Assembly (NCBI GenBank): GCA_963666285.1
Contig: OY762711.1
Source of the DNA: Sedimentisphaerales bacterium
GTDB lineage: Bacteria > Planctomycetota > Phycisphaerae > Sedimentisphaerales > SM23-30
Length of the DNA: 64,000 bases
Strand: one strand, 5' to 3'
Shown one piece after another: positions 9,064-46,169 of this stretch (position 1 is the first letter of the stretch; the number at the start of each line of letters is the position of its first letter). The position numbers and the translations under genes were made by a program. The notes beneath the pieces are model-generated. The model ran no database searches, was not told the DNA's origin, and saw only the letters and a list, made by a program, of their open reading frames with translations.

Positions 9064-9178
9064 CTCTACTCTAATTTTGGGGCAGAAGTATTTATAAACC
9101 TTTTTATACTATTTAATTGGATTGGTTTAATAATAATTTGAAGTAATATTTATAAATTTAATATATTTAACAAAATGT

Positions 9179-10762: not shown

Positions 10763-11693
10763 TTAATTTCTTTAAGTATATCTTATCCGCTAAACAATTT
10801 TTTAATCCAGTCCTATGACATACTTTTGTTTCTGGAAATGGTATTTGTAAGTCTTTTGATATACTGATTCTTTTGTCCTGTGCAATTTGATAAAGGCATG
10901 GGATATAATAATCGTTGTAAATGTTTTTGAATCTGCATAGTTGGTTTTCTGATTGTTTTGGCAGATTATCCGTATATAAAACACCCTTTGTAAAAATGTC
11001 TAAATTCAATCTCCCTTCGTAAGTGTCAATTAGCTTTTGAATAATAGTATAATATTCATTAAATGGAATTATGTACTCTTGATTGTCATTCCAATAATCT
11101 TCCTCATCTCTAATTAGTCCGATTGTTAATGTTTCAATATTTGGCAAATTTGTTTCAACGTATTTTATGACTTCTGTAAGTTGGTTCTTATTATATTGAG
11201 TCATTAAAAATACTAATTTGACTTTGTAAAATTTAGAGTATTCGTTTATATTTTCTGTAATGTCTTTAAGTGGTTTGAATGATTTATCTTCTGCCTCTAA
11301 AGATTGGAAACTAATTCCTAGTTTGATATTTTTATGTTTTTTATCTAAATTACGCAATAAATACCCATTAGTATATACACCTACTGTTTTATTTTGAGAT
11401 TCAAGATATGTAATAAATTTATTTATATCTTTATGGATTAACGGCTCTCCGCCTTGTAAATCGTATTTCTCAATTTGTGGGTTATTTTCGACGATTTTTT
11501 TGATATGCCCTAAATCCATAACATTTCTTCTAGCCATACTTTTGTTATTAAAACAATAAGCACAATTTAGATTACAATCACTTGTTATAAATAGCAGAGC
11601 AGTTTTTGAATAATGCTTATATTGCTCTTTCCACCTATTTGGATCAATTCTTAATTTGAACCTTTTATGATTCTTATTTGCAACTTGCTCCAT
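10755..11693 (-). CDS. Radical SAM protein
   Basis: CNLNCAYC, GGEPL and YTNG motifs; four further Cys near the C-terminus; overlaps the HAD start. Confidence 0.9.
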   Translation of the reverse strand: MEQVANKNHKRFKLRIDPNRWKEQYKHYSKTALLFITSDCNLNCAYCFNNKSMARRNVMDLGHIKKIVENNPQIEKYDLQGGEPLIHKDINKFITYLESQNKTVGVYTNGYLLRNLDKKHKNIKLGISFQSLEAEDKSFKPLKDITENINEYSKFYKVKLVFLMTQYNKNQLTEVIKYVETNLPNIETLTIGLIRDEEDYWNDNQEYIIPFNEYYTIIQKLIDTYEGRLNLDIFTKGVLYTDNLPKQSENQLCRFKNIYNDYYIPCLYQIAQDKRISISKDLQIPFPETKVCHRTGLKNCLADKIYLKKLND

Positions 11694-11797
11694 TTATAAG
11701 TGGAATATCTATTACTTTATAAACATTATTAAGGCATTTGGATAAAACAGTGCCAATTAAAAGAAAACTTTTTAATAAGTTATATTTTGATATTTAT

Positions 11798-12916
11798 ATG
11801 GTCACTGTAGATGGAACAGAATTTAAGCTGATGGGATATGAACGCTTTTTTGAGGTACAGGGAGCTTCTTATTTATTTAGCAGTTTTTATGCAAAGCTTT
11901 ATTCTGATTTAGGATTACTTATTATCAATAATGATGGTTTCGTTTCATTATTTTTGGATAAAAATAAGGTATCAAAAAACCAAAGAGATTCTTTTGCATT
12001 TTATAGTAGTTTAGATGAATTTCAAAACTATCTTACTTCTTTCAAACAATTTCTTTCTGAATCAGACTCTTTTTTTGAATCAATATTGTCTAAAGAGAAA
12101 ATTACAAGCTTAGATTTAAATACTTATTTCAAGCAGATCATCAAATTCTTTAATTTCTATAAATGGACTGAATTCTTTTATAGCGACTATTCTTACATTG
12201 CTGTTAAAGATAATTCTACGCTAAAGAATGGTACACTTGAAAATAATTTATTGCAATTAGGGGAAATCAAAACAGATGGGAGAATTCTTTTGAATAAGAT
12301 ATTTAATAAATCCGATTCTTATTTGAATCGTTTTTTAGATAAAATTGCTAAACTTAAACCTATAAATAGGGATGATTTGAAACTGCTTACTTATTCAGAA
12401 ATTGTCATTTACTTTGATAACGGAGTAGTGCCAAAGATAGATAACAGAAAAAATGACTTTACATTATTAACAAGCCCAGGTCTGAATTTATTAAAAAACG
12501 CCCTACATCAGGATTTTATTACGGAATTCAAGGAGCAGACTTCAGACGTTGTTAAAGGAATAGTAGCTTGTGAAGGAGCTATTGAAGGTACTGTTAGAGT
12601 TTTAGATTTCAACTTTGATAATTTTGATATTCTATTTGATTTAATTAATGAAATGAATGATGGTGAAATATTGGTGGCAGAAACAACATCTCCTGACATA
12701 TTTCTTGCGTGCGAAAAAGCTTCAGCGATTGTTACTAATCAAGGTGGTGTAGGATCACACGCTGCAATTGTTAGCAGAGAAATGGGTATTCCGTGTATCG
12801 TTGGAACTAAAGATGCAACTAAAGTATTGAAAACTGGTGACTTGGTAAAAGTTGATGCGTTTAAAGGAGTAGTTCAATTTATCAAAAAAGTGCCAAGGAA
12901 TGAAGATGGAAAATAA
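11798..12916 (+). CDS. PEP-utilising enzyme: helical N-terminal domain plus phospho-His swivel (mobile) domain
   Basis: TTSPD, GGVGSHAAIVSREMGIPC, LKTGDLVKVDA; ATG at 11798 preferred because a TATA-like box precedes it. Confidence 0.88.
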   Translation: MVTVDGTEFKLMGYERFFEVQGASYLFSSFYAKLYSDLGLLIINNDGFVSLFLDKNKVSKNQRDSFAFYSSLDEFQNYLTSFKQFLSESDSFFESILSKEKITSLDLNTYFKQIIKFFNFYKWTEFFYSDYSYIAVKDNSTLKNGTLENNLLQLGEIKTDGRILLNKIFNKSDSYLNRFLDKIAKLKPINRDDLKLLTYSEIVIYFDNGVVPKIDNRKNDFTLLTSPGLNLLKNALHQDFITEFKEQTSDVVKGIVACEGAIEGTVRVLDFNFDNFDILFDLINEMNDGEILVAETTSPDIFLACEKASAIVTNQGGVGSHAAIVSREMGIPCIVGTKDATKVLKTGDLVKVDAFKGVVQFIKKVPRNEDGK

Positions 12917-13364
12917 AATAATTGTTTTAGTTTCTTCTATTGCCATAAAAAATAACAAATTATTAATTGTACATAATAAATGGTCTGATGATAGATTTGG
13001 ATGGACTTTACCTTGTGGACATGTTGAACCAAATGAAAAGCTGGATGTAGCAGTTAAACGAGAATTTATGGAAGAAACTGGTTTACAACCATTAGAGCCG
13101 TTTAAGTTTGAGTTTTTATTACAAGTGAAAAAAGCTACAACAATGATTTATCATTTTTTTTATTCAATAACTAGATTTGATGGAGTTCCGCATGTAAACA
13201 ATGACCCTGATACTATCATTACTAATCTGGAATATTTTTCATTTTCAGAGGGTGTGTCTAAAATCTTATATGAAGATGTCAGATTTGCATTAAACAAATG
13301 GAACTCAAAAGAGACTGCTAGTCCATTATTTTATGACTTAACTACTCCTAGAGAACATTTATAA
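12900..13364 (+). CDS. NUDIX hydrolase
   Basis: Nudix box GHVEPNEKLDVAVKREFMEETG; overlaps the upstream gene. Confidence 0.9.
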   Translation: MKMENKIIVLVSSIAIKNNKLLIVHNKWSDDRFGWTLPCGHVEPNEKLDVAVKREFMEETGLQPLEPFKFEFLLQVKKATTMIYHFFYSITRFDGVPHVNNDPDTIITNLEYFSFSEGVSKILYEDVRFALNKWNSKETASPLFYDLTTPREHL

Positions 13365-13388
13365 AATATTTGAGACTCCATATTAGTT

Positions 13389-14906
13389 ATGAGTCCAGCA
13401 AAAAATGATTCAAGTGCAAGAGATGAATTGATGAGATACATTTCTGAGAAGGGATTGGTCTATGGCCCTAGCCCTAATATATACGAAGGTGGTGTTAGCG
13501 GATTTTATGATTTCGGCCCTTTAGGGAAATCATTAAAGAACAATATTGAAAATTCAATTAGAAAAGCATTTGATATCTTTTCTTTTTATGAAGTTGAATG
13601 TCCAATTGTTGTTCCTGAAAAGGTTTGGAAAGCCTCTGGTCATATTGATGGTATTTCTGATCCTATTGTAACTTGCTCTAAGTGTAATGCTGTTTGGAGA
13701 ATTGATAATTTAATAGAAGAGCAAAATTCTGATATTGATGCTGAAAACATGACTACTAAAGACATGTCTGATTTCTTATCAAACAATGAAGTTATTTGTC
13801 CTAGTTGTAAGGTTAGGTTGCCTTCTGAAGTAAAAGAACATAATCTTATGTTAAAGACAACAGTTGGTTTTGGGACTCCTATGTATAATAGACCTGAAAC
13901 AGCAACTACTACCTATTTACCATTCTTAGAGTATCTTAGATTTTTTAGAGATAAACTACCTTTTGGAGTCTACCAAATTGGAAATGCCTATAGGAATGAG
14001 ATTTCACCAAGACAGCATTTACTAAGAGGTAGAGAGTTTACGCAAGCAGAAGCACAGCTATTTCTTTTTAAGGATCAAAAAGAGAACTTTGCAAAGTTCG
14101 AAGAAGTTGCAGATCTGGAATTACCGTTTTTAACTGCTGATGCTCAATTTAATAATGGAAATGTAATTACAATGTCACTGGCTGATGCAATTACTAATAA
14201 GGTACTTAAAAATAAAGCTTATGCCTGGACGTTGGGGATGACTTATAAATTATTTAGAGATTTAGGAATTCCTCGTGAAAATTTAAGATTTAATCAACAC
14301 TTACCAGACAAGCTTGCTTTTTATGCTGATGATGCATGGGATTTAGAGGTGAAATTCAAAAGTTTTGGTTGGGTTGAATGTTGCGGTTGTCATGATAGAA
14401 CCGATTATGACTTAACAACTCATAGTAAATTTAGTGGTAAAGAGTTAGTTGCATTAAATTTGACTACAAACAAAAAGGAAACACCTCATATCCTTGAAAT
14501 TGCTATTGGGCCAAATAGGCTTCTTTTGGCTGTTTTAGACTTAAATTTAGATTTAGGAATTGAAGGTGTCAGTAAACCCAAGTTAAAGCTTCCATCAAGC
14601 CTTTCTCCTATTAAAGTAGCTATTTTACCATTGTCAAAAAAAGAGCATATATTGGAAAAATCCGAAGAGATTTATTTGAATTTGAACAAAAAGATGAGAG
14701 CTCAATTAGATGAATCTGGAAGCATAGGGAAAAGGTATTTAAGACAAGATTCTATAGGTACTCCTTTTTGTATCACTGTTGATTTTGATTGTTTAGAACA
14801 AGACAATGAGAATTATGGAAAAGTAACAATTAGAAATAGAGATTCAGAAAAACAAGAAAGGGTAAAATTTGACAATATTGAATCTTGGATTGCTACAAAG
14901 TTATAG
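13389..14906 (+). CDS. glyS: Glycine--tRNA ligase, alpha2 (archaeal/eukaryotic) type
   Basis: GFYDFGPLG, RPETA, YRNEISPR..REFTQAE, anticodon domain GSIGKRY..D.IGTPFCITVD; TTTATAAA ~25 nt upstream. Confidence 0.95.
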   Translation: MSPAKNDSSARDELMRYISEKGLVYGPSPNIYEGGVSGFYDFGPLGKSLKNNIENSIRKAFDIFSFYEVECPIVVPEKVWKASGHIDGISDPIVTCSKCNAVWRIDNLIEEQNSDIDAENMTTKDMSDFLSNNEVICPSCKVRLPSEVKEHNLMLKTTVGFGTPMYNRPETATTTYLPFLEYLRFFRDKLPFGVYQIGNAYRNEISPRQHLLRGREFTQAEAQLFLFKDQKENFAKFEEVADLELPFLTADAQFNNGNVITMSLADAITNKVLKNKAYAWTLGMTYKLFRDLGIPRENLRFNQHLPDKLAFYADDAWDLEVKFKSFGWVECCGCHDRTDYDLTTHSKFSGKELVALNLTTNKKETPHILEIAIGPNRLLLAVLDLNLDLGIEGVSKPKLKLPSSLSPIKVAILPLSKKEHILEKSEEIYLNLNKKMRAQLDESGSIGKRYLRQDSIGTPFCITVDFDCLEQDNENYGKVTIRNRDSEKQERVKFDNIESWIATKL

Positions 14907-15047
14907 AAATTGTATTTCTTTCTTTTTAATTATCCTTCAAGAAGGATTGATAAATAAATGAAAGCTAGCATACCACTAGCCTTCACAAATGAAATTCTTC
15001 CAAAACTTTCCATATGAATATCAAATAAAAACTAAGAAAATAAGAGA

Positions 15048-15896
15048 TTAGTCTCTTTTTCTTCTACTTAAATATGTTAGAATTCCTGTTGCAGCCAAAC
15101 CTAATGTTCCTGGCTCTGGTACAATTGGAGTATAGTCTTCTGAAACCATCACTCTTCCTGCTCTTCCGCCAAAATCATCTCCCGCTAAGTACATATTACT
15201 ACCATCTATAGCAACATCAGTAAGATTTCCATAATCCCTTCCAAGCATATATTCAGCTACAATACCTTTACCAACTCCACCTTCTAAGATAGTTTGATTG
15301 TCAGTTGTAAACAAGAAAGGCATACTTGCCAAACTTGAACCTGTACCGTTACCAAGTCCAGTGATTGAGCTTGTACTATTAAAAGCAAGATCAGTAGTTG
15401 TGATTGAACCATTTAATAGATTAAGCAAATCTAATCTATAATCATTATTACCAAGACTTTTTACTAATGGAGCATAATCGCTTCCGTTTAATGAAAAAGC
15501 ATCACCAACACCCTTATATGCACTAGCTACACCAAATGAAGCATTATCGAACTCATTACTTCTATTATAAATTTCTAAATCTCCATTCTGAAGATCAAGT
15601 GCGTAATTAATACCATTTTTATTCCAATTACCAGTATCTTGTACACTACTTGCATTACCTACAGTAGTTTCAAAAGTTAAATCTTTTCCAGAATCTACAG
15701 CAGCACCACCAGTACCGCTAGCATAGATTTTATCATCAGTTGTAGTAATACCTACTAATGGACCAGGCAACAAAACATCCTTATCAATGTTTATTGTCTT
15801 TGTAAGTGCTGCATCTGCATTTGGGGCTCCGGCAATACCAGCAGCCAATAAAGCAAGCCCTGTAAGTGGCTTTTTTAGGAAATTTGGAGTTTTCAT
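15048..15896 (-). CDS. PEP-CTERM sorting-domain protein
   Basis: Signal peptide; C-terminal VPEPGTLGLAATGILTYLSRRKRD. Confidence 0.9.
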   Translation of the reverse strand: MKTPNFLKKPLTGLALLAAGIAGAPNADAALTKTINIDKDVLLPGPLVGITTTDDKIYASGTGGAAVDSGKDLTFETTVGNASSVQDTGNWNKNGINYALDLQNGDLEIYNRSNEFDNASFGVASAYKGVGDAFSLNGSDYAPLVKSLGNNDYRLDLLNLLNGSITTTDLAFNSTSSITGLGNGTGSSLASMPFLFTTDNQTILEGGVGKGIVAEYMLGRDYGNLTDVAIDGSNMYLAGDDFGGRAGRVMVSEDYTPIVPEPGTLGLAATGILTYLSRRKRD

Positions 15897-15992
15897 TTTA
15901 TTATAACCTCTTTTGGTTTATGTTGTGGAATCAGACATAGTTTATATATCTTCTCCTTTTAACTATTCCTATGTGACTACACCCTGAATCAG

Positions 15993-16639
15993 TTAAAGCA
16001 TTAGTCGTTCTAAAGCCATATCAGCATCAGAATCCATCACATCTGCATATACTTGCGTTGTTGTAATCCTGGAATGACCAAGCTGTTTTTGGACAAGTCG
16101 AAGGTTACAATCGCTTGCCTTATATAAAAAGGTAGCGTATGTATGCCGAAGACTGTGGATCGAATACTGCGAGTCAAGTTTAGCTTTTTTGGCACAACGC
16201 TTGAAAGCTTTCTGTAAGGCTCTGGTGGTCAAATGCCCGCCTGTCCTGGTAGATATAAGTAAAGGTGCATCTGCATCTGTTGGTTCGCCAACGCTTTCTT
16301 TCCATTTCAGAAACTGAATACAGAGTCGCTTTACCTTTTTGGGCATAAATACCAAACGCTGCTTGCCGCCTTTACCATTTCTAACAAGAAGTGCCGGCTT
16401 TTTTGTATTGTTCAAATACATATCACCGCATGTTAAAGCTGCAAGCTCCATTACCCGAAGTCCGGTACTGATGGTTAGATGTGATACAAAGAAATCCTTG
16501 TATGCAACTCGTTCAGTGTAGGTCTGCGGTATCCTTGCATCCTTTTTGGTGATTTCTAGCAGCCACAAAGCCTCATTTCTGTCCAAAAACTTGTTTGGTG
16601 TCAGAATCCAATCATCCGAAATTAAGTTTTTTTATACAT
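15993..16639 (-). CDS. Small (catalytic-domain) tyrosine recombinase; 5' end appears frameshifted at an A7 tract
   Basis: TGLRVMEL, GKGGKQR, HSLRHTYAT, LGHS...TTQVY; AGGAG + ATG at 16639 joins the frame only if A7 were A8; ORF-track start is 16586. Confidence 0.9.
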
Positions 16640-16658
16640 ATTCAATTCTCCTATAATC

Positions 16659-16688
16659 GAGTTCACATTTGGCGAGAAATATGAACTG
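16659..16688. repeat. Left recombination-site-like inverted repeat (12-6-12 dyad)
   Basis: GAGTTCACATTT-GGCGAG-AAATATGAACTG; 16671-16688 is a perfect 18-bp inverted copy of 16865-16882. Confidence 0.85.
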
Positions 16689-16700
16689 AATAAAGAAGAC

Positions 16701-16728
16701 TTGACTTATTTAAATAATTGACTATAAA
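16701..16728 (+). promoter_or_regulatory. Sigma70-like promoter inside the candidate invertible segment
   Basis: TTGACT-N16-TATAAA. Confidence 0.45.
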
Positions 16729-16864
16729 GGAGATAGGGCTTTTTGAGAGTCTTAATGAATTGAAGACAGCTTAACTAAATTAACACTGGAGAAATGTTAA
16801 AAATAGCCTATTATGGGCTGTAAAGTTGAAATTCTAAATAATTTGAAAATATGAAAGAAAAAAC

Positions 16865-16894
16865 CAGTTCATATTTCTCGCCTTATATGAACTG
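16865..16894. repeat. Right recombination-site-like inverted repeat (12-6-12 dyad)
   Basis: CAGTTCATATTT-CTCGCC-TTATATGAACTG; spacer is the reverse complement of the left spacer. Confidence 0.85.
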
Positions 16895-17283
16895 GCTGGT
16901 CTCCGATTATACCAAATTTAGCCCGATTTCTAATCAATAAAAATAAGGATTTATAGAAGATTTTCACTATTTCTTATGAATTCTAACGAAAAAATAGCTT
17001 GTGTCTTAGAACTGCTTGCTGTTAAAATAACTAATGGAAATACAGTAATTTCTGTTATAGCAGTTATTTTGGGAATTATTACTGTAGATTAGGTTGAGAT
17101 TCGACTGGGATTCGGTCGGATTACTACAAGCAAAATATATATTATTCCAACGCATAAGTTAAGTTTATACGCTTTTGAAAGCATAAAACTTGATGAATAC
17201 CATACGAGAAGTATTATGTGTAGAAGTCGGGATATTGGAATATCCCGGAATTTAATATTATTTCCTTCGTAAAGGAGACCATT

Positions 17284-20200
17284 ATGAAAGTGATCCGTTT
17301 GTTAGTGTTACTACTGTGCTTAGCAACTGTAGTATCTGCTCAAAATACAGCACCCCTTACTATTCAGGCAGCACCAATGTCTGGGGGAGCTTCATCTTAC
17401 CCACCTGTTCCATTTGACACAAATAAATCTTTTCTGATATATACCACTGATAATGGTGATTTAGTTTCAGCGATGAATTATTATGGTTTGTCATACACTA
17501 CTCGTTCTGCTTCACAACCAGTTACTCTAAATGACTTAAATACCCATGATGTCCTTATTGTTGGATGGAATACTAGTGATAGTCCAACAACAATGTCAGG
17601 CTTAGACCCTGATATAATCTATTCAGGAATAACAGGAAGAGCTGTAATTACTGGTCATGATGCGGATTATCATGTTACTCATTCTCCCGAAGCTGGTAAT
17701 GAAGTTTTTGAACAAATGATTAAATTTGCTCTTGATGGTGTAGGTACTGGACTTGTTGCTTTTGGTGACGATAAACGTGATTTTGAATGGTTGCCAGAAG
17801 AATGGGAAATAGTAGCAGACCATGCAGATGAGGGCGAATATGTTGACAGCATAACTGAAGAAGGACAAAGTAGTGGAATTTATGACAATCTAAAAGCTCA
17901 TGCAGAAACTGGTGATCCCACCGGCATTATGTACCTTTCAAATTGGAGTAAATCATATCATAATATATTTGAAAGCTGGGGAAATGGTTTTGAACCTTTT
18001 GAACTACAAAGTAGCACTGGTAATGACGCTGTAACAATTGGAACGCCTTTTAATGCTAATGGCTTTATTTTTACAAAAGAAGACGATGTTGCTGATGATA
18101 GTTGCGTATCTCCTGAAGATGATTTAACATACACAATCTGCTACAACAACACTTCTGGTATTACTATTTATAACGCTAAAATTGTTGACTATCTGCCTAA
18201 AGGTGTTACTTACCCAGAGGGTTTCTGGAGTATTGATGGGGATATGAACCCTATACCACCAGATCCTGCGTATGATCCAAACTTCCATACTTACACTTGG
18301 GATATTGGTACTATTATACCAGATGAAGACCCCAATGCTCTGCATTGTGAATCATTAGATGTCGTTGTAAATGAAAATGCTATTCCAGGCATGACGCTTT
18401 ATAATGAAGCATGGCTTATTGGCGAATATGAAATCATAGACCCTAATTCAAGCGACCCGAATAATCCCAGTACTCTACTTGTCGAAAGAGTATTTGCTAT
18501 TGCAACAGAAGAAACTGATGTATGCTGTTGGACAACACCAACACCAACACCAAATATTATATACGTTGATAAATATGCAACAGGTGCAGATACAGGAATA
18601 GATTGGGAAAATGCCTATAATACAGAATTTGGTGTAAAGAAAGCACTAGTTCAAGCGTGGGAATCAACTTGTAGTGGCCCTTTCACAATCTATGTAGCTG
18701 AAGGAACATACTTACCTGGTACTGATTATGTGGATAGTTTTGATCTTCCAGAGGGAACTAAAGTCTATGGCGGTTTCTTAAGCGGTGGTTGTGAATTCAA
18801 TAGTAGAGACCCTAAAGGATATGAAACTAGATTGTCAGGCTATTTAGCTCAAGCTGACGCTTTGCATTTAGTTACAATGGGACATAATACTTTACTGGAT
18901 GGTTTCACTGTAGAGAGTGCTTCAGATACGCTTATTTCAGGTGAAGGTGCCGACTTTACTGTTGAAAACTGTGTTATTAAAGATAGTTGGCAAACAGGTG
19001 TTTATGCTGAAGGATGTAATGTCACTATCAAATATTGTTTGATTAAAAATAATGGTGAGCATGGTATCTACCATCAAGGTAGTGAAGTTCTTAATTTTGA
19101 ATTAAATATATTTAATTCATGGATAATGAGAAATGAAGAACATGGCATACAATGCCTATATTCAACACCTACTATAAAAAACAGCATAATATCTGAAAGT
19201 GATATGGCTACTGATGGTAAAGAAGGTATTAGAGTTACTAATCCATTCCAAAAACCCATTATATACAATAACACAATTTCAAATAACAAAGGAAAAGGAA
19301 TATATTTTGAGGATGATGGCAATGCTAGTGGCGACCCAAATGACGTAAGCCTTGATTATCCTGATATCCAGAATTGTATTGTATATTACAATAACAATAA
19401 CCTAGTGCAAATGGAAGGATTCGACCCAAATACTAATGTAGCCTATAGTTGTATACAAAACTGCTTTGAGGTTAATAACAACATAAACGCTGCACCATTA
19501 TTTGCTTATCCAGTTAATCCATTAGGTGCACCTGACCCAGATAATTATCATCTTGCTCATAACTCAATATGTCGCGATATGGGAAGTCCTTACCTTGATT
19601 ATTCTAGTCAAGTAGATTATGACAAAGAAATTCGTGTTGCAGGCATTAAGGTAGATATTGGAGCTGATGAGTTATATAGCTGTGACGGTGACTATACTGA
19701 AGATGATTTCTCAAACGATGCCGATTGGAATGCTGATGGTATTGTAAATATGTACGAGTTCAGCATATTTGCAGGTTCCTGGCTTACTAATGACCCCAAT
19801 AGTGTCGCAGGCCAGGCAGACCCCAACAGCACAATAGGTTGGGATTCAAGATGCAATTTTGATGACACTAGTAGTAGTGCCGACACCATTGATATCGCTG
19901 ACTTTGCATTCTTTATTGGTGAAGTTCCATGGCTCTGGAAAGCTTGCTGGTATGATAATTACCAAGCAGTAATGGGGGGCGAAGCTGCTATGATGTCTAC
20001 ACCTGAAACTATATCTTTAATGACTGTTGAACCAGTTGCTAGAGCAATGGCCATGACATCATTTAATACCGACACTGGGCCCACCAAAACAGGAGTGGTT
20101 GGAAAAGCTGATCCATACAGTTATTTGACAAATGAACAACTAGCTATATTTGTAAAAGATATCTATGAAATTGAAGGTATGGTAATAGAGCAAATTGAGG

Positions 20201-20289
20201 CTGGAAGTGAAGATAAAGAAGATTTAACGGAAATATTGGTTTTCTTTGATGAAATCTTGGTTGATATTCAAGAAACTTTAACCAAATAG
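17284..20289 (+). CDS. Secreted protein: DUF11-like domain, right-handed beta-helix, dockerin-like C-terminal motif
   Basis: Signal peptide; LTYTICYNN..IVDYLPKGVTY; beta-helix repeats; VDIGADE; ADWNADGIVNMYEF; AAGGAG ribosome site. Confidence 0.75.
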   Translation: MKVIRLLVLLLCLATVVSAQNTAPLTIQAAPMSGGASSYPPVPFDTNKSFLIYTTDNGDLVSAMNYYGLSYTTRSASQPVTLNDLNTHDVLIVGWNTSDSPTTMSGLDPDIIYSGITGRAVITGHDADYHVTHSPEAGNEVFEQMIKFALDGVGTGLVAFGDDKRDFEWLPEEWEIVADHADEGEYVDSITEEGQSSGIYDNLKAHAETGDPTGIMYLSNWSKSYHNIFESWGNGFEPFELQSSTGNDAVTIGTPFNANGFIFTKEDDVADDSCVSPEDDLTYTICYNNTSGITIYNAKIVDYLPKGVTYPEGFWSIDGDMNPIPPDPAYDPNFHTYTWDIGTIIPDEDPNALHCESLDVVVNENAIPGMTLYNEAWLIGEYEIIDPNSSDPNNPSTLLVERVFAIATEETDVCCWTTPTPTPNIIYVDKYATGADTGIDWENAYNTEFGVKKALVQAWESTCSGPFTIYVAEGTYLPGTDYVDSFDLPEGTKVYGGFLSGGCEFNSRDPKGYETRLSGYLAQADALHLVTMGHNTLLDGFTVESASDTLISGEGADFTVENCVIKDSWQTGVYAEGCNVTIKYCLIKNNGEHGIYHQGSEVLNFELNIFNSWIMRNEEHGIQCLYSTPTIKNSIISESDMATDGKEGIRVTNPFQKPIIYNNTISNNKGKGIYFEDDGNASGDPNDVSLDYPDIQNCIVYYNNNNLVQMEGFDPNTNVAYSCIQNCFEVNNNINAAPLFAYPVNPLGAPDPDNYHLAHNSICRDMGSPYLDYSSQVDYDKEIRVAGIKVDIGADELYSCDGDYTEDDFSNDADWNADGIVNMYEFSIFAGSWLTNDPNSVAGQADPNSTIGWDSRCNFDDTSSSADTIDIADFAFFIGEVPWLWKACWYDNYQAVMGGEAAMMSTPETISLMTVEPVARAMAMTSFNTDTGPTKTGVVGKADPYSYLTNEQLAIFVKDIYEIEGMVIEQIEAGSEDKEDLTEILVFFDEILVDIQETLTK

Positions 20290-20299
20290 CACTTGATTT

Positions 20300-20340
20300 T
20301 ACCTGCCGTCATTTGATAGAATGGCGGTGGGTAATTTTAT
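20300..20340 (+). terminator. Stem-loop/terminator after the 1001-aa gene
   Basis: TGCCGTCATT...AATGGCGGT stem followed by an AT-rich run. Confidence 0.5.
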
Positions 20341-20368
20341 TTATACAAACAACTTACAGGAGAGAAAT

Positions 20369-21007
20369 ATGAAAATAATGTTATTGGTGGTTATGGTATT
20401 ATCACAACTGAGTTTCGCAGGTTATTTTGATGCAAACCATGTAACAGAAGATGGTTTACTTGAAGATGGTGAATATGGCATTGCAGCAAGAGTTGACGGT
20501 TCTAGTACTTTGACTGTTACTGGTGGTGGTGCAGAAAGCATAGATATTTTGGGTAGTGCTCATTTAGATGTAATATCGACCAAAATTCCTTTATCTGATT
20601 CTTATAATGGAGGTGGAGGAATTTATGATATTAATGTCGAGAATTACGCCTCACTTACTTTTTCTGGTGGAGTTGTAGATAGCATTGAAATTTATAATAA
20701 TGCTACAGCAATACTTAATGGTGGAACAATAAACTCACTTGAAATTTATCAATATGGCTCTTTAGGCCAAACAGTAAGAATCGAATGCTGTGATGGTTGG
20801 AGCTGGATTTATGGTATAGAACAACAAATCAAAGGAATAACGGGTAATTGGCAAAATGGAACTCCATTCTCTATTGATTTTATAGATGCAATAAGACGAC
20901 CAGATCTTAACCCACCAGTACATACTCATGTTGAAGTTGTAACTCCTGAACCTGCATCTTTACTGATGCTCGGCCTTGGTGGATTAGTCCTTAGAAAACG
21001 AAAATAA
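20369..21007 (+). CDS. PEP-CTERM protein
   Basis: AGGAG + ATG at 20369; signal peptide; TPEPASLLMLGLGGLVLRKRK. Confidence 0.9.
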   Translation: MKIMLLVVMVLSQLSFAGYFDANHVTEDGLLEDGEYGIAARVDGSSTLTVTGGGAESIDILGSAHLDVISTKIPLSDSYNGGGGIYDINVENYASLTFSGGVVDSIEIYNNATAILNGGTINSLEIYQYGSLGQTVRIECCDGWSWIYGIEQQIKGITGNWQNGTPFSIDFIDAIRRPDLNPPVHTHVEVVTPEPASLLMLGLGGLVLRKRK

Positions 21008-21028
21008 ATCGAATTTGGAGTGTGCCTT

Positions 21029-21790
21029 ATGAAATACATAATTATAATGTTATGTTTATGTTCGTCAATTTTTGCAGCAAACTTTGATTACGTTGTTTCT
21101 AATGAATATCGCAATGAAACTATGATGTTGCTAAATGAGTCTTTATTAGTTGAAAATGGTGGTGTTAGTGTAATCAAAGCATATGGGAATGAAACATATG
21201 TTAAAGTTACAAGTACTACTTCCTATTCATATCAAGAAGGCGGGATTGGTGGTATAAATATATTTGATAGTAAAGTTGATATTGATAGCGGTGATGTTGG
21301 AAACATCATTACAGAACGATCTAGTACACTTATTTATAATGCTGGCAATTTAGACTGGATACATGTTAAAGACAGTAGCACTGTAAACTTCCATGATGTT
21401 AATTTTACAAACGCACATGTTTACGATAATAGTTCATTTCACATGAGTGGTGGGCATGCTGACTATATGTTTATATTAGATAATTCATCAGTAACATTAT
21501 CTGGTGGCAATATAGATACCATTCGCAATACTCAGTTTGTATCTTTAAGCGAGGATATTAGTTTTAATATTATATGTAAAGATTGGTCTTGGAACGATGA
21601 AACTAATATGCTTAGTGGACATTGGGAAGATGATTCAACTTTCAATATAAAATTAACAGATACAGAATGGGAAGATGATACGCCATATGTATTGTTTGAC
21701 CAAATAGATTTTACTATAGTACCTGAACCCACTTCTTTAACTTTTGCTGCAATTGGCGGTTTAATACTAAAGAAAAGATACAAGAAATAA
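21029..21790 (+). CDS. PEP-CTERM protein, paralogue-like to the upstream gene
   Basis: Signal peptide; VPEPTSLTFAAIGGLILKKRYKK; shared G.W.....F.I motif before the PEP. Confidence 0.9.
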   Translation: MKYIIIMLCLCSSIFAANFDYVVSNEYRNETMMLLNESLLVENGGVSVIKAYGNETYVKVTSTTSYSYQEGGIGGINIFDSKVDIDSGDVGNIITERSSTLIYNAGNLDWIHVKDSSTVNFHDVNFTNAHVYDNSSFHMSGGHADYMFILDNSSVTLSGGNIDTIRNTQFVSLSEDISFNIICKDWSWNDETNMLSGHWEDDSTFNIKLTDTEWEDDTPYVLFDQIDFTIVPEPTSLTFAAIGGLILKKRYKK

Positions 21791-22468
21791 TTTGACACTC
21801 AATTTTGGCTGGTGTGGTTCTGTTCAATTTCCCTTCTGAATCCCGACCATAACATCATAGAATGGGATCACACCGGCTTTTTATCAATAATCTTTATGGC
21901 TAATGTTTTAAATATCTTCAGGTGACACATATGTCCTTTGTGTTCGGGAAGCGACCATGAAAGTCAGTTATACCTAGTTCAAGCAAGTATTGAAAATATA
22001 ATCGATTATCTCGAATTATCCTCAGAAATCATTATTTATGTCTTTTTCTGAACTTTTTAATTCAATTTATGAAATATGACCCTAATTTCAGGTTTGGGGA
22101 GAAAATACTCAATAGCAAAATAACGGTTGACAGAAAGCCTTAATAACTGTTAAATATAGCGTTATGTCAACGGAGCCGAAACTCCAGCCTCTTATTCCAT
22201 GAAATGCATAGTTAGAGTCAAAAATGAATGAAAAAATGATAAATTACGACTATTGATGTTCTAGCAATATATTTGAAAATTGCCCAATTTATGCTATATA
22301 AGCTTGCTCAAGAAAGCAAATTCCGGTCATAAGATTGAACAACATTGGAGGTTTCACCAGAAAGCTGTTGATCACTTTGTGAAAATGGGTCATTGGCAGA
22401 CAAAAAGATTTAAAAATCTGTACAAAGCAATTTGTTATATTATTTGCAGTTACGGAGATGTTTAATAT

Positions 22469-24907
22469 ATGGCGTTGAAAAAATCACAACTTTATAGTTC
22501 TTTATGGAAAAGCTGCGATGAGCTTCGTGGCGGCATGGATGCTTCACAGTACAAAGACTATGTTCTTACATTACTTTTCATGAAATACGTGACTGACAAA
22601 TCAGGTCAACGTGATTTTTTGATCGATGTTCCAAAAGGTGGTAGCTTCAATGATATGGTTGCCCTTAAGGGCGACAAAGAAATAGGCGATAAGATTAACA
22701 AGATTATCGGTAAATTGGCAGAAGCCAACGACCTTAAAGGTGTGATCAACGTCGCAGACTTCAATGACGAAGATAAGCTCGGCAAAGGCAAGGAAATGCA
22801 GGATCGCCTTTCAAAGCTGCTGGCAATCTTCAATGACCTTGATTTTAGTTCCAATCGTGCCGAAGGTGATGATTTACTTGGTGATGCCTATGAATATCTG
22901 ATGCGGCATTTTGCTACAGAATCCGGCAAAAGTAAAGGGCAATTCTACACTCCGGCAGAAGTGTCTCGTATCATGTCCAAGGTTGTGGGCATCGGGCCTA
23001 AGACAAGTCAGGACAAAACCATCTATGACCCAACATGCGGATCAGGTTCCTTGCTGTTGAAAGCTGCCGATGAAGCACCAAGAGGTTTAAGTATATATGG
23101 TCAGGAAAATGATAATGCTACATGGGCACTTGCAAAGATGAATATGATCTTGCATGGACACCCCACAGCTGACATATGGAAGGACAATACACTCTCTAAG
23201 CCGTATTTTAAGAATTCCGCTGGAGGCTTACAGGCTTTTGACTTTGCTGTTTCCAATCCGCCATTTTCAACAAAATCATGGTCGAGCGGCTTTAATCCCT
23301 CGAATGATAAATATGGGCGTTTTGAGTACGGTACTCCACCAGCTAAAAATGGTGATTATGCGTTTTTGCTTCATGTCCTTAAGTCCCTTAAAAGTACAGG
23401 TAAAGCGGCGATTATTTTGCCGCATGGTGTATTGTTCCGTGGTAATGCCGAAGCGGACATTCGAAAGAATCTGATAAAACATGGTTTTATCAAAGGCATT
23501 ATTGGATTGCCTGCTAACCTGTTTTACGGCACTGGTATTCCAGCCTGTATTATTGTGCTGGACAAGAACAATGCACATGCTCGTAGCGGTATCTTTATGA
23601 TTGATGCCAGCAAGGGCTTTATTAAAGACGGCAATAAGAATCGCCTTCGTGATCAAGATATCCATAAGGTTGTCGATTGTTTCAATAATCAGATAGAACT
23701 GGAACGATTCTCTCGAATGGTTCCGGTCAGCGAGATCTCAAGCCCTGCCAATGATTACAATCTTAATATTCCACGCTATATTGATTCCAGTGAGCCGGAA
23801 GATTTGCATGACATAGAAGCACATCTTCGAGGCGGGATTCCTAATCGAGACATTGATGCATTGGATGATTACTGGCAGGTTTTCCCTACTCTGAGAAAAG
23901 CGGTTTTCAAACATGGAGATCGTGCTGGTTATAGCTTGCCTAGAATTGAGAGCCGTGAGGTCAAGTCTGAAATTCTAGCACATGAGGAATACGGCGTTTT
24001 TGCTGATAAGGGTATGAAGATATTTACCCAATGGTGTGCCAAGCATGAACCTGCTTTAAAAGCTCTACGGAAAGGTTCCGTCGCGAAGAAAATCATCAAT
24101 GTGCTATCCGAGGATATCCTTGAAAGGTTTGAAAGGCTGCCGTTGCTTGATGAATATGATGCTTACCAGCGGCTGATGGACTATTGGATGGAGATTATGC
24201 AGGACGATGTTTATTTAATTACTGCTGAGGGCTGGGCAGAAGCTGCCAAACCAAGGGGCATCATTGATGACAAAGAAAAGAAGATCAAGGAATCGCCTGA
24301 TCTGGTTACCAAAAAGTCCAAATACAAGATGGATTTAATTCCACCATCTTTAATAGTAGCGAAATACTTTGCTGAAGAGAAAGCTGTAATTGATGAACTT
24401 CAAAACAAGGCGGAAGCTATTTCTCAAAAACTGGAAGAGTTTACCGAAGAGCATTCTGGGGATGAGGGCCTGCTGGAGGACGCCAAAACAGATAAAGGCA
24501 ACCTGACCAAGGCTTCCGTTACTGAACGGCTGAAAGAAATCAAAGGTGATGCTGATTTTGAAGACGAATACAAAGTATTGACGCAGGCATTGAAATTAAT
24601 TGAGTCGCTGGCAAAGGCCAACAAGGCTGTAAAAGATGCTCAAGAGAAGCTTGATAACAGAACGCTTGCTCAATACGGCTTACTTTCAATTGATGATATC
24701 AAAATCCTAGTCGTCAATGATAAGTGGTTAGCAAGCATGGAAAATGCTATTTCTGAAGAACTTGAACGGCTCATCCAAAAACTGGCTTCACGAGTAAAGG
24801 AGCTTGAGGATCGTTATGATGAAACATTACCTGAATTGACAAAGTTGGTTAATGATTATAGCAGCAAGGTCGAGGCTCATCTTGTGGAAATGGGGATGAA
24901 ATGGTAG
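22469..24907 (+). CDS. hsdM: Type I R-M methyltransferase subunit
   Basis: GQFYTP, YDPTCGSGSLL, NPPF, LPHGVLFRG. Confidence 0.97.
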   Translation: MALKKSQLYSSLWKSCDELRGGMDASQYKDYVLTLLFMKYVTDKSGQRDFLIDVPKGGSFNDMVALKGDKEIGDKINKIIGKLAEANDLKGVINVADFNDEDKLGKGKEMQDRLSKLLAIFNDLDFSSNRAEGDDLLGDAYEYLMRHFATESGKSKGQFYTPAEVSRIMSKVVGIGPKTSQDKTIYDPTCGSGSLLLKAADEAPRGLSIYGQENDNATWALAKMNMILHGHPTADIWKDNTLSKPYFKNSAGGLQAFDFAVSNPPFSTKSWSSGFNPSNDKYGRFEYGTPPAKNGDYAFLLHVLKSLKSTGKAAIILPHGVLFRGNAEADIRKNLIKHGFIKGIIGLPANLFYGTGIPACIIVLDKNNAHARSGIFMIDASKGFIKDGNKNRLRDQDIHKVVDCFNNQIELERFSRMVPVSEISSPANDYNLNIPRYIDSSEPEDLHDIEAHLRGGIPNRDIDALDDYWQVFPTLRKAVFKHGDRAGYSLPRIESREVKSEILAHEEYGVFADKGMKIFTQWCAKHEPALKALRKGSVAKKIINVLSEDILERFERLPLLDEYDAYQRLMDYWMEIMQDDVYLITAEGWAEAAKPRGIIDDKEKKIKESPDLVTKKSKYKMDLIPPSLIVAKYFAEEKAVIDELQNKAEAISQKLEEFTEEHSGDEGLLEDAKTDKGNLTKASVTERLKEIKGDADFEDEYKVLTQALKLIESLAKANKAVKDAQEKLDNRTLAQYGLLSIDDIKILVVNDKWLASMENAISEELERLIQKLASRVKELEDRYDETLPELTKLVNDYSSKVEAHLVEMGMKW

Positions 24908-26736
24908 GTAACATAACAATTCCTGACGGCTTTAAAAAGACCGAGATAGGTCCCATACCTGAGGAATGGCATGTAGTACCTTTGTCTGCATTGGGACGTT
25001 TCTCAAAAGGCCGAGGTATTAAGCGAGATGATGTACGTGAGTATGGGCTGCCTTGCATTAGATATGGAGAGCTTTATACAGACTACGATAACTATGTGAC
25101 TGATCCTAAGTCGCAAATACCCTTCAATGTAGCTTTGACAGCCTTGCCAATTAAATTTGGTGATCTACTTTTTGCCGGTTCTGGTGAAACTGCTGAGGAA
25201 ATTGGTAAATGTATCGCATACCTTGGGGAAGATGCTGCATATGCTGGTGGAGATATAGTTGTATTGACTCCATATGCTCAGCACTCGTTTTTTCTTGCCC
25301 ATCTGATGAACTTCGGCCCCGTTGCAGCTCAAAAGAAACGATTGGGACAAGGAGATGCTGTTGTGCACATCAGTGCAACTAATCTTTCGAAAATTAAAGT
25401 CCCAGTACCCCTGGAATCTGAACAAAATGAAATCACCAAAGCATTGTCCGACATTGACAGTTTAATTAGCAGTCTTAAAAAACTTGTAGCAAAGAAGCAA
25501 GATATTAAACTTGCGACTATGCAGCAATTACTTACTGGAAAAAAACGATTGCCTGGTTTCTCCAAAGATTGGGATGAGAAAAAAATTGGCGACTTCACAA
25601 GTTGTACTGCTGGCGGAACCCCAAGCACAAAAAATGCGAAATATTGGGATGGAGATATTAAGTGGATGAGTTCCGGCGAACTTAATATGAAATTTGTAAA
25701 AGATGTTGAGGGTAGAATTACAAAATTAGGGCTTAATAATTCCAGCACAAAATTAATCCCTTCTAAATGTGTGCTGATAGGACTTGCTGGCCAAGGAAAG
25801 ACTAGAGGCACTGCAGCTTTGAATTATACCGAGCTTTGTACTAATCAGTCAATTGCAGCAATCTTTCCAAATGATAATTTTATTTCTGAATACTTGTATT
25901 ACAATCTTGACATGAGGTATGATGAATTAAGGGGGCTTTCCACAGGAGACGGTGGACGTGGTGGATTAAATCTTAGGATAATCCGTTCTATTGCAGTGCC
26001 TTTCCCAGAGATTGCCGAGCAGGAAGCCATTGCCAATGTACTCTTAAATATGGACACAGACATTGAATTTCTGCAGAAGAAGCTTAATAAAACTAAATCT
26101 CTTAAACAAGGTATGATGCAGGAGTTGCTAACCGGAAGAATTCGTTTTGCAAAAGCTGCTGAAAAGTCAACCAAGAAGCATAACTGGGCAATTGATGAAG
26201 CGGTTATCATTTCTACACTGGTACATAAGTTCGGCAGTGTCAATTTCCCGCTTGGCAGAAAGCGTTATACTAAAATGAGCTATCTTTTCCACCGCTATAT
26301 TGACGGAAAAGCAGAAGGATATTTAAAGAAGGCCGCAGGCCCTTATAATCCAAAGACAAAGTATGGCGGCGTGGAAACGCTCGCTTGTAAGAATGGTTAT
26401 ATCCAGAACTACAAAAATGGAAAGTTTAGTGGTTTTGTCTCAAGCGATAAAATTGAACAAGCTCTTGGTTATTTTAATCAATGGTATGGCGAGGAAGCTA
26501 TGCAATGGCTTGAGCAATTTCGTTATGAGAAAAACGATGTCCTTGAATTATGGGCAACGGTTGATATGGCAGTGCAGGATTTAGAAACTGATGGTAAAGA
26601 AGCAACAGTTGCTAGTGTCAAAGATTTGATCAAAAACGATAAAGAGTGGAAGGCAAAGCTGAAACGAGACATTTTTTCAGATGACAATATAGCCGAAGCG
26701 ATCACAAAAACAAGGGAACTACTAACGGAGGTATAA
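24901..26736 (+). CDS. hsdS: Type I R-M specificity subunit with a ~195-aa C-terminal extension
   Basis: Two TRD/conserved-region repeats ending MQQLLTGK and MQELLTGR, then an extra domain. Confidence 0.93.
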   Translation: MVGNITIPDGFKKTEIGPIPEEWHVVPLSALGRFSKGRGIKRDDVREYGLPCIRYGELYTDYDNYVTDPKSQIPFNVALTALPIKFGDLLFAGSGETAEEIGKCIAYLGEDAAYAGGDIVVLTPYAQHSFFLAHLMNFGPVAAQKKRLGQGDAVVHISATNLSKIKVPVPLESEQNEITKALSDIDSLISSLKKLVAKKQDIKLATMQQLLTGKKRLPGFSKDWDEKKIGDFTSCTAGGTPSTKNAKYWDGDIKWMSSGELNMKFVKDVEGRITKLGLNNSSTKLIPSKCVLIGLAGQGKTRGTAALNYTELCTNQSIAAIFPNDNFISEYLYYNLDMRYDELRGLSTGDGGRGGLNLRIIRSIAVPFPEIAEQEAIANVLLNMDTDIEFLQKKLNKTKSLKQGMMQELLTGRIRFAKAAEKSTKKHNWAIDEAVIISTLVHKFGSVNFPLGRKRYTKMSYLFHRYIDGKAEGYLKKAAGPYNPKTKYGGVETLACKNGYIQNYKNGKFSGFVSSDKIEQALGYFNQWYGEEAMQWLEQFRYEKNDVLELWATVDMAVQDLETDGKEATVASVKDLIKNDKEWKAKLKRDIFSDDNIAEAITKTRELLTEV

Positions 26737-26739
26737 GGT

Positions 26740-42286: not shown

Positions 42287-42288
42287 CA

Positions 42289-46057: not shown

Positions 46058-46090
46058 AAAGCCTCGTAAGTCTTTGACTTACAAGGCTTT
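46058..46090. terminator. Hairpin between the integrase and the tRNA (att-proximal)
   Basis: AAAGCCTCGTAAGTC-TTT-GACTTACAAGGCTTT. Confidence 0.7.
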
Positions 46091-46096
46091 ATTAAG

Positions 46097-46169
46097 TACG
46101 CCATTTAGGACTTGAACCTAAAACCCACGGATTAAGAGTCCGTTGCTCTACCAATTGAGCTAATGGCGC
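46097..46169 (-). tRNA. tRNA-Lys(CTT)
   Basis: GCGCCATTAGCTCAATTGGTAGAGCAACGGACTCTTAATCCGTGGGTTTTAGGTTCAAGTCCTAAATGGCGTA; full cloverleaf; CCA not encoded. Confidence 0.97.

What the first reader, a model, noticed from the sequence alone, without database searches (positions are those of the whole stretch)
15993..21790. Candidate invertible-promoter switch controlling a secreted/PEP-CTERM surface-protein cluster
Seen: two 30-bp sites in inverted orientation (16659-16688 and 16865-16894). Each is a 12-6-12 dyad with the same asymmetric spacer (GGCGAG/CTCGCC), and they share a perfect 18-bp inverted identity. They flank ~200 bp that contain TTGACT-N16-TATAAA pointing right. A small catalytic-only tyrosine recombinase is immediately left. 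A 1001-aa secreted protein and two PEP-CTERM genes are on the right. Known: lox/dif-type sites have dyad arms around a 6-8 bp spacer, and inverted sites with matching spacers give inversion, as FimB/FimE do at fimS. Inference: this is phase variation of an exosortase-dependent surface coat in a planctomycete-like host, and flipping would aim the promoter at the recombinase gene itself.
Basis: partly seen in the sequence, partly recalled or inferred. Interest (0 to 1): 0.85.

Follow-up and report, generated by a model that had tools for sequence, protein, structure and literature searches.

The report
Self-silencing invertible terminator switch
A 200-base stretch between two mirror-image recombination sites, found flipped in some relatives, likely works as an off/on switch for its own recombinase and the surface-protein gene behind it, and many copies also carry an archaeal-type promoter, so the switch may read oppositely in bacteria and in tiny archaea.

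Summary
The two inverted sites are real. They belong to a widespread family of ~209-aa tyrosine recombinases. In 78 of 78 loci with two strong sites the 6-bp spacers match in inverted orientation (44 spacers among 95 two-site loci), and three homologues hold the segment flipped.

A conserved sigma70 promoter lies outside the segment and faces the recombinase (60 of 85 loci). In the common orientation the distal site plus a T-run forms a terminator-like hairpin (61 vs 11 of 89 when flipped), and an anti-Shine-Dalgarno masks the recombinase RBS. The likely switched unit is the recombinase plus the gene downstream, here the left PEP-CTERM gene. The right-hand cluster has its own leader.

This works like the C. 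difficile cwpV switch, but is self-contained and likely self-silencing. The window's copy is OFF-like and lacks the usual start codon; contigs show no flip.

Bold reading: many segments carry a DPANN-type BRE-TATA facing the recombinase, and 3 of 4 loci on archaeal contigs look flipped versus 2 of 92 others. The scan noted this family before on other DNA (e1-2879392).

The parts
16659..16688 (.). Proximal recombination site, 12-6-12 dyad, spacer GGCGAG (+)
   Evidence: family position about -63 from the start
16865..16894 (.). Distal recombination site, spacer CTCGCC (+), inverted to the proximal one; its dyad is also the stem of the predicted terminator on the minus strand
16677..16876 (.). 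Invertible segment (200 bp between the spacers), in the family's common orientation A, predicted OFF in bacteria
   Evidence: orientation score +0.34
16906..16933 (-). Fixed sigma70-type promoter outside the segment: TTAGAA-16-TATAAT with extended -10 TG, facing the recombinase; -10 ends 11 nt before the distal site
   Evidence: 60 of 85 homologous loci have such a promoter here
16858..16896 (-). Predicted intrinsic terminator in state A: distal-site hairpin (-15.8 kcal/mol, z -3.7) followed by G and U6; the U-run is lost on flipping
16689..16704 (-). Anti-Shine-Dalgarno (UCUUCU at 16699-16694) predicted to pair with the recombinase RBS across the proximal-site hairpin in state A only
   Evidence: SD unpaired probability 0.02 (A) vs 0.62 (flipped)
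16711..16735 (-). Conserved internal motif TAWC-N17-KTTA at a fixed distance from the proximal site; likely an accessory-protein site, and also the segment's best but weak TATA-like hit
   Evidence: 75 of 93 segments; score 6.9
16701..16728 (+).
16622..16652 (-). RBS AGGAGA (16652-16647) and leader mini-ORF MYKKT* (16639-16622); the family's main ATG position (16625) reads TTA here
   Evidence: letters confirmed in short-read unitigs
15993..16631 (-). Catalytic-domain-only tyrosine recombinase frame (R59, K87, H159, R162, H186, Y195 intact); first usable start TTG 16586, or an ATT at 16622
15048..15896 (-). PEP-CTERM protein in tandem behind the recombinase: the likely switched cargo; TATA-like box upstream at about 15941-15948 (by eye)
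16894..17303 (+). Leader of the right-hand cluster, 77% identical to a switch-less paralogue at C1:1,256,119
17284..21790 (+). 1001-aa secreted beta-helix protein and two PEP-CTERM genes; a multi-copy host family, probably not switched
46060..46169 (-). tRNA-Lys / right end of the 66-kb island that carries the switch (left repeat at C1:3,372,170, outside the window); integrase at 44756-46021

Best explanation
The two sites bound a 200-bp segment that the adjacent recombinase family likely inverts, and the segment likely acts as an orientation-dependent stop signal in the leader of an operon made of the recombinase and the secreted or PEP-CTERM gene behind it. A fixed sigma70 promoter starts just outside the distal site. 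In the common orientation A the transcript is predicted to end at a terminator built from the distal site's own dyad plus a U-run from inside the segment; any read-through mRNA is predicted to have its RBS masked by an anti-SD from the other end of the segment. Flipping to B removes both blocks, so cargo and recombinase would be made, and the recombinase would flip the segment back. The result is a self-silencing, mostly-OFF phase-variation module carried on genomic islands. Different spacers would keep co-resident copies from recombining. Shown: site anatomy, spacer covariation, flipped homologues, and conservation and orientation-dependence of promoter, hairpin/T-run and anti-SD. Inferred: transcription start, termination, translational block, feedback, catalysis. 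The window's copy is in A and lacks the family start codon, so it is probably slow or frozen unless re-initiation, a -1 shift or the intact paralogue at C1:2,946,410 supplies enzyme.
For: 78 of 78 loci with both sites over 8 bits have a 6/6 inverted spacer match and none more than 4/6 direct; 44 spacers among 95 loci; cross-locus chance 4.2%. Three flipped segments: 82, 70 and 64% identity reversed vs 47-50% as found, with colinear flanks; they lie in different parts of the family (L028 and L143 on separate branches; L093 closest to L085). Outside promoter score of 12 or more in 60 of 85 loci vs 0 of 85 in each of three controls; -10 ends 8-11 nt before the site in 44 of 64. Terminator-like in 61 of 89 (A) vs 11 of 89 (flipped in silico), 0 of 89 at the proximal site. 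SD less accessible in A in 54 of 75; cognate duplex -9.44 vs -8.17 permuted, 0 of 5000. Downstream gene on the same strand in 61 of 69, PEP-CTERM-like within 3 kb in 17 of 69 vs 2 of 64 upstream. One flipped locus (L093) has a split recombinase, as expected of a copy locked ON. Precedent: cwpV (PMC2784873, passages).
Against: No RNA data and no raw reads; contigs of this sample show one orientation only at both copies. A dyad always folds, so the hairpin alone proves little; 23 of 89 loci have a more stable hairpin when flipped and 28 of 89 fail the terminator rule in A. The T-run could serve DNA bending. Loci are kin, so p-values overstate. Some clades differ: L022/L150/L155/L158/L160 lack the outside promoter and T-run and carry an internal sigma70 promoter instead; L037/L143 and L051-L058 score low for the outside promoter. 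The window's -35 is poor, and its -10 region is shared with a switch-less locus. Only 6 of 52 first downstream proteins scanned hit Pfam PEP-CTERM.
Confidence: 0.7

Rival explanations
1. Cross-domain switch (an addition to the best explanation, not exclusive). The segment also carries an archaeal BRE-TATA promoter facing the recombinase in state A, so A is OFF for bacterial but ON for archaeal polymerase and B the reverse. Each host would drive the switch to its own OFF state, giving a pulse of expression after transfer between Phycisphaerae and DPANN archaea.
For: A PWM from the segments marks upstream regions of 10 of 35 and 8 of 43 genes in two DPANN genomes, 4 of 9 in the host's DPANN block and 0 of 216 host core genes. 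A PWM built only from DPANN genes scores 8 or more toward the recombinase in 52 of 93 segments vs 14 away and 2 shuffled, at two fixed positions. No TBP was found in the host genome. One clade reaches the same logic with back-to-back sigma70 and TATA promoters. Three of 4 loci on archaeal contigs are called flipped vs 2 of 92 others, p 3e-4. Both host islands carry DPANN-like DNA.
Against: The window's own segment has only a weak TATA-like hit (3.1 and 6.9). A direct test of TATA direction as found was not significant (p 0.14 and 0.08). Only L028 is flipped by alignment; L267 and L268 rest on a trinucleotide classifier, and L171 is A-like. Two short contigs from archaeal MAGs (L036, L019) are in A. 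The PWM marks only 2 of 55 Aenigmarchaeota upstreams. The recombinase is rare in DPANN samples (2 of 401, 1 of 301, 4 of 401, 1 of 118). The anti-SD would also block many archaeal transcripts.
Confidence: 0.3
2. One reading: an invertible sigma70 promoter inside the segment drives the right-hand 1001-aa/PEP-CTERM cluster (fimS-like).
For: TTGACT-16-TATAAA is present (score 11.5); the distal hairpin has no U-run in that direction; internal invertible sigma70 promoters do exist in L022/L150/L155/L158/L160 and L131/L132.
Against: Not conserved (outward promoters vs shuffles p=0.63). Right-side genes are in random orientation. The right cluster's leader is shared with a switch-less paralogue. In the clades with an internal promoter it sits at the distal end, not the proximal end as here.
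Confidence: 0.1
3. The window's copy is a frozen relic: the architecture is real but this locus no longer flips.
For: The main ATG reads TTA; long branch of 0.74 vs median 0.13; no flipped branch in unitigs at depth 22-27.
Against: Catalytic residues, both sites, promoter, T-run and anti-SD are intact. A relative at 79% identity is called from the same downstream position (P0002), which suggests the odd start is old and tolerated. An intact paralogue with similar arms is in the genome, and it too shows no flip in contigs.
Confidence: 0.35
4. The two dyads are core plus accessory sites of one resolution or integration site of a mobile element and never recombine with each other.
For: The module lies in tRNA-anchored islands; the proximal site is often weaker than the distal one.
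Against: An accessory site needs no matching spacer, yet 78 of 78 match across dozens of spacer types; flipped segments switch identity exactly at the sites; no third site with the same spacer in the genome.
Confidence: 0.03

Closest known systems
cwpV switch of Clostridioides difficile (RecV); PMC2784873, passages seen
   Same: Fixed promoter upstream of a ~195-bp invertible leader; predicted intrinsic terminator at the junction of the first repeat in the OFF state only; tyrosine recombinase; surface-protein target; mostly OFF.
   Different: There the repeats are 21-bp imperfect IRs and recV is unlinked and chromosomal. Here the sites are lox-like 12-6-12 dyads with locus-specific spacers, the site's own dyad is the stem, the recombinase is the first gene of the switched operon, there is an anti-SD layer and a leader mini-ORF, and the module moves on islands with variable cargo.
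fimS / FimB / FimE of E. coli; PMC9993118, passages seen
   Same: Small tyrosine recombinase next to a short invertible element; orientation feeds back on recombinase output (Rho-dependent terminator for fimE); accessory DNA-binding sites inside.
   Different: fimS carries the promoter, has 9-bp repeats and lies downstream of the recombinase genes. The protein here scores 28 and 27 bits on the invertase models against cut-offs of 221 and 222.
Akkermansia inverton group 138 (PEP-CTERM-associated); PMC11892184, passages seen
   Same: Invertons beside PEP-CTERM genes in a PVC bacterium.
   Different: Described as invertible promoters; that paper finds neighbouring invertases generally not regulatable by their inverton, whereas here the recombinase is placed to be regulated. 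Repeat motifs were not compared.
Cre/loxP and Xer/dif sites (site anatomy recalled; folds)
   Same: Dyad arms around an asymmetric 6-bp spacer that sets the direction; same catalytic fold.
   Different: No core-binding domain; used for inversion; spacer differs from locus to locus.
Archaeal integrons as cross-domain platforms; PMC9668308, passages seen
   Same: Tyrosine-recombinase system shared by bacteria and archaea, with expression in both discussed.
   Different: Cassette capture at attC sites; no invertible, domain-specific promoter logic in the passages seen.

Membership tests
Tyrosine-recombinase DNA inversion switch | Catalytic R-K-H-R-H/W-Y residues and fold | tested here: met
   R59, K87, H159, R162, H186, Y195 invariant in 27 sequences
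Tyrosine-recombinase DNA inversion switch | Two sites with matching crossover spacer in inverted orientation | tested here: met
   78 of 78 loci; 44 spacers among 95 loci
Tyrosine-recombinase DNA inversion switch | Both orientations occur in the family | tested here: met
   L093, L028, L143 flipped
Tyrosine-recombinase DNA inversion switch | Both orientations occur at this locus | tested here: inconclusive
   Contigs only, one orientation; contigs drop rare variants
Tyrosine-recombinase DNA inversion switch | The adjacent enzyme catalyses the inversion | not testable with these tools
   needs an assay
cwpV-type invertible terminator | Promoter fixed upstream of the invertible segment | tested here: met
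   sequence level: 60 of 85 vs 0 in controls; start site not mapped
cwpV-type invertible terminator | Hairpin plus U-tract in one orientation only | tested here: met
   61 vs 11 of 89; window
cwpV-type invertible terminator | Termination measured in the OFF state | not testable with these tools
   no RNA run listed
cwpV/RecV family proper | Recombinase unlinked from the switch | tested here: not met
   recombinase lies 20-60 nt behind the proximal site; recV is unlinked
cwpV/RecV family proper | Orthology to RecV | not tested
   no RecV sequence was fetched
FimB/FimE invertases with fimS | Score over the curated invertase cut-off | tested here: not met
   NF007370 28/221, NF007371 27/222
FimB/FimE invertases with fimS | Promoter of the target operon inside the segment | tested here: not met
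   not conserved family-wide; true only for one clade and L131/L132
XerC/XerD/XerA, integron integrase | Core-binding domain and curated score | tested here: not met
   209 aa; best 117/220 XerA, 109/335 XerC, 80/265 IntI
Archaeal BRE-TATA promoter (internal motif) | Matches real DPANN gene-upstream motifs | tested here: met
   met for about 35-52 of 93 segments
Archaeal BRE-TATA promoter (internal motif) | Present in the window's own segment | tested here: inconclusive
   best hit at the family position but weak, 6.9 and 3.1
IHF site (internal dyad motif) | WATCAANNNNTTR consensus (recalled) | tested here: not met
   0 of 93 strict matches; only AA-N4-TTA is conserved; one HU/IHF-family gene in the host

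The most novel reading that the evidence does not exclude
A recombinase switch on islands that shuttle between Phycisphaerae bacteria and DPANN archaea, wired so that one orientation is readable only by archaeal polymerase and the other only by bacterial polymerase. Because the recombinase is under its own switch, the element silences itself in whichever domain it sits and fires when it crosses into the other: a DNA-encoded memory of the last host domain.
Probability: 0.25. Interest if true: 0.92.

Novelty: new variant of a known kind. Interest (0 to 1): 0.72.

Why it matters
Invertible terminators are known from C. difficile. This is a large, mobile, self-contained version in environmental planctomycetes, where my literature searches found no described inversion switch. 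It folds site, terminator, translational block and feedback into about 300 bp plus a 209-aa enzyme. The 44 natural spacers on near-identical arms suggest a compact, orthogonal invertase toolkit. If the archaeal promoter is functional, it would be a gene switch whose logic depends on the host's domain of life, and it would point to regular DNA traffic between Phycisphaerae and DPANN archaea, which bears on the open question of DPANN hosts.

Tried and rejected
Direct-repeat (excision) partner or third site in the genome: none. Assembly error at the A7 run, or a chimera at the DPANN junction: one 36,758-nt unitig covers 14500-17121 with no difference (may be the source sample). Flipped junctions in contigs: none at either copy; contigs cannot show rare forms. 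No RNA holder listed. Run X3 gave fragmented contigs with many loose ends and was not used. Strict IHF consensus: 0 of 93. The terminator scan tool missed the distal hairpin; I assume the loop is over its 8-nt limit. Rfam: no match. Plasmids: no match at 1e-25. Viral contigs: only distant relatives, and the three checked had no sites. TATA direction as found as a test of host domain: not significant. Same cargo family behind both paralogues: they share only the N-terminal leader and the PEP-CTERM tail. The cluster look-up for names of close homologues could not be made, so the DNA context of P0002 and of the Pacearchaeota-named P0016/P0037 stayed unchecked. The tree is the quick version; the careful search did not finish. 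No complex prediction was run.
Full report
OBSERVATION. The sites are as described: 12-6-12 dyads at 16659-16688 and 16865-16894 with spacers GGCGAG/CTCGCC, an exact 18-bp inverted identity and 176 bp between them. No further copy exists in the 6.35-Mb genome at up to 6 mismatches. The recombinase frame is PF00589, catalytic domain only, with all six catalytic positions. The SD-led ATG at 16639 opens only MYKKT*, and the family's start position reads TTA. A short-read unitig of 36,758 nt covers 14500-17121 with no difference, so the start and the junction to the low-GC DNA on the left are real (possibly the source sample). The host looks like Sedimentisphaerales: a same-order genome holds the segment of a named Sedimentisphaerales MAG. 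It has two exosortases.

A FAMILY. The protein has many ~209-aa relatives at 52-60% identity; 4,685 proteins passed E 0.001, a count that includes other tyrosine recombinases. A paralogue at C1:2,946,410 has the same layout with spacer GACGTG. I examined 162 loci: 80 genome loci, 80 metagenome loci, the paralogue and the window. Ninety-five had two sites with matching inverted spacers; many of the rest are cut short or distant. In all 78 loci where both sites scored over 8 bits the match was 6/6 inverted, and never more than 4/6 direct; 44 spacers occur among the 95. The PWM used arms only, taken from loci with matched spacers. Spacers from different loci match in 4.2% of pairs. Of 93 distinct segments, 86 are clearly in one orientation (A, as in the window), 3 are flipped (B) and 4 are unclear by alignment. 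The flipped ones are L093, L028 and L143, at 82, 70 and 64% identity reversed against 47-50% as found, with colinear flanks. This shows that inversion happens in the family and argues against a core-plus-accessory resolution site.

WHAT FLIPS. A sigma70-type promoter sits just outside the distal site and faces the recombinase. It scores 12 or more in 60 of 85 loci, against 0 of 85 further upstream, on the other strand or in shuffle means. The -10 ends 8-11 nt before the site in 44 of the 64 loci scoring 11 or more. The window has TTAGAA-16-TATAAT with TG, ending 11 nt before the site. In A the distal dyad is followed by a T-run: 61 of 89 loci meet a simple terminator rule, against 11 of 89 after flipping in silico and none at the proximal site. 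Against this, 23 of 89 hairpins are more stable when flipped. The window's hairpin is -15.8 kcal/mol and is followed by U6. At the other end, the last 20 nt of the segment pair with the recombinase RBS across the proximal dyad. The SD is less accessible in A in 54 of 75 loci, and cognate pairs beat permuted pairs (-9.44 vs -8.17, 0 of 5000); in the window the unpaired probability is 0.02 vs 0.62. An ATG lies exactly 14 nt before the main start in 49 of 90 loci (next commonest offset: 8), and in 40 an upstream start has an overlapping stop. This is likely a coupling leader that limits enzyme output (inference). Kin are not independent, so these p-values overstate.

WHICH GENES. Downstream of the recombinase the next gene is on the same strand in 61 of 69 loci (52 within 150 nt); 35 have a hydrophobic N-terminus, and a PEP-CTERM-like tail occurs within 3 kb in 17 of 69. 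Beyond the distal site orientation is random (33 vs 29) and PEP-CTERM-like tails occur in 2 of 64. Pfam confirmed PEP-CTERM in 6 of the 52 first downstream proteins scanned (52 of 59 available); most others are unknown or other secreted types. In the window the cargo is the PEP-CTERM gene 15896-15048. The right-hand cluster belongs to a multi-copy host family, and its 410-bp leader is 77% identical to that of a paralogue with no site or recombinase. One clade (L022, L150, L155, L158, L160) lacks the outside promoter and T-run and has an internal sigma70 promoter facing away, which would reach the recombinase on flipping.

MECHANISM (inferred). State A is OFF through termination and RBS masking. 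Rare leak, or a paralogue acting in trans, flips it to B; cargo and recombinase are made; the recombinase flips it back. This predicts the strong A bias and fits L093, a B-state locus with a split recombinase. L143 is in B with an intact gene, a weak outside promoter and no tandem cargo. The window's copy may be frozen, but a 79%-identical relative is called from the same downstream position. Neither copy shows a flip in contigs, which cannot reveal rare forms.

ARCHAEAL LAYER. Both host copies lie in tRNA-anchored islands (tRNA-Lys, 66 kb; tRNA-Asn, 40 kb) beside DPANN-like DNA. The named best hits of the window's GlyRS are nearly all DPANN (one Bacteroidota, one unspecified archaeon). About half of the segments hold GNAAGCTTTATAAAT some 85 nt before the proximal site (43 aligned). 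Its PWM marks 10 of 35 and 8 of 43 gene upstreams in two DPANN genomes, 4 of 9 in the host's DPANN block, 2 of 55 in an Aenigmarchaeota genome and 0 of 216 host core genes. A PWM learned only from 93 DPANN upstreams scores 8 or more toward the recombinase in 52 of 93 segments, 14 away and 2 shuffled. No TBP was found in the host. I predicted that loci on archaeal chromosomes would be in B, knowing that L028 was. L028's contig has proteasome beta, aCPSF1 and Trm56. Of three further loci, L268 (contig with L44e-, Hel308- and GINS-like genes) and L267 (Nanobdellota-type transglutaminase) are called B, and the distant L171 (L15e) is called A, by a trinucleotide classifier that is right in 85 of 86 leave-one-out tests. 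That gives 3 of 4 vs 2 of 92 (p 3e-4), or 3 of 6 vs 2 of 90 (p 1e-3) if two short MAG contigs in A are counted as archaeal. Against: the direct TATA-direction test was not significant; the recombinase is rare in DPANN and patchy in the host's class (8 of 401); the window's own segment has only a weak hit. I give the cross-domain reading 0.25-0.3.

COMPARISON. The closest system is cwpV/RecV: fixed upstream promoter, 195-bp inversion, terminator at the first repeat in OFF, but recV is unlinked (PMC2784873, passages). fimS has an internal promoter, 9-bp repeats and feedback on fimE (PMC9993118, passages); the protein fails the Fim-type and Xer cut-offs. Akkermansia invertons lie beside PEP-CTERM genes, and neighbouring invertases there are generally not regulatable (PMC11892184, passages). 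Searches for inversion/tyrosine recombinase/Planctomycetes/phase variation and for invertons/Planctomycetes returned 0 papers. Searches listed nothing on this family by title or abstract start. PMC11602134 and PMC11868660 were searched for terms only, and PMC9668308 was read in passages. Supplements were not seen, and the library lacks most subscription papers. Other notes describe the islands as bacteria-DPANN shuttles; I tested this only in part.

VERDICT. A real inversion-switch family (about 0.93), most likely a self-silencing invertible terminator for the recombinase and its downstream cargo (0.7). New variant of a known kind, interest 0.72, with a testable cross-domain reading that would be new in kind.

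Noticed in passing
window 784-14906 and C1:3,384,000-3,407,000: About 23 kb of 29-33% GC DPANN-like DNA (Woesearchaeota-type GlyRS, 2759-aa FG-GAP protein, archaeal-style integrase, TATA boxes) inside the tRNA-Lys island, on one unitig with the switch.
   Followed up: partly
C1:2,935,962-2,975,847 (L001): Sister island at tRNA-Asn with the paralogous switch, a PEP-CTERM gene with the same MKxPxFxKKPLTG leader, DPANN-like genes, and similar methylase, ATPase and kinase/phosphatase/vWA modules.
   Followed up: partly
window 41198-44178: PP2C-FHA phosphatase, kinase and vWA triad (TerY-P-like, name recalled); the kinase has a 31% relative in an island on a Woesearchaeal contig (L271).
   Followed up: partly
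window 22469-30523: Type I restriction-modification cluster with a YgjP/M48-like gene; HsdS has a long C-terminal extension.
   Followed up: no
window 21790-21880: Multi-copy ~90-bp intergenic repeat, often behind secreted/PEP-CTERM clusters, on C1-C4.
   Followed up: no
window 17084-17150 and 17223-17250; L003 6307-6470: Strongly conserved blocks in the leader of the 1001-aa gene family, including a hairpin at 17227-17248; possible regulator site or RNA element, no Rfam match.
   Followed up: partly
contigs C2-C4 (about 65 kb each): Three similar-sized extra replicons carry paralogues of the 1001-aa protein and the intergenic repeat.
   Followed up: no
C1:3,343,440 and 3,372,170: Two identical-scoring 82-bp copies of the tRNA-Lys 3' end: tandem islands at one tRNA.
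   Followed up: no
L237 (G290:C40) 2236-2510: In a Woesearchaeal contig a distant family member has a strong BRE-TATA just inside the distal site, facing a divergent secreted gene: possibly an invertible archaeal promoter.
   Followed up: partly
L012/L113, upstream about -277: A distal site that seems to have one extra base between the arms; possibly a dead or variant switch.
   Followed up: no
L143 6706-11011: CBASS-like operon (nucleotidyltransferase, E1/E2, JAB, patatin; by eye) next to a flipped switch.
   Followed up: no
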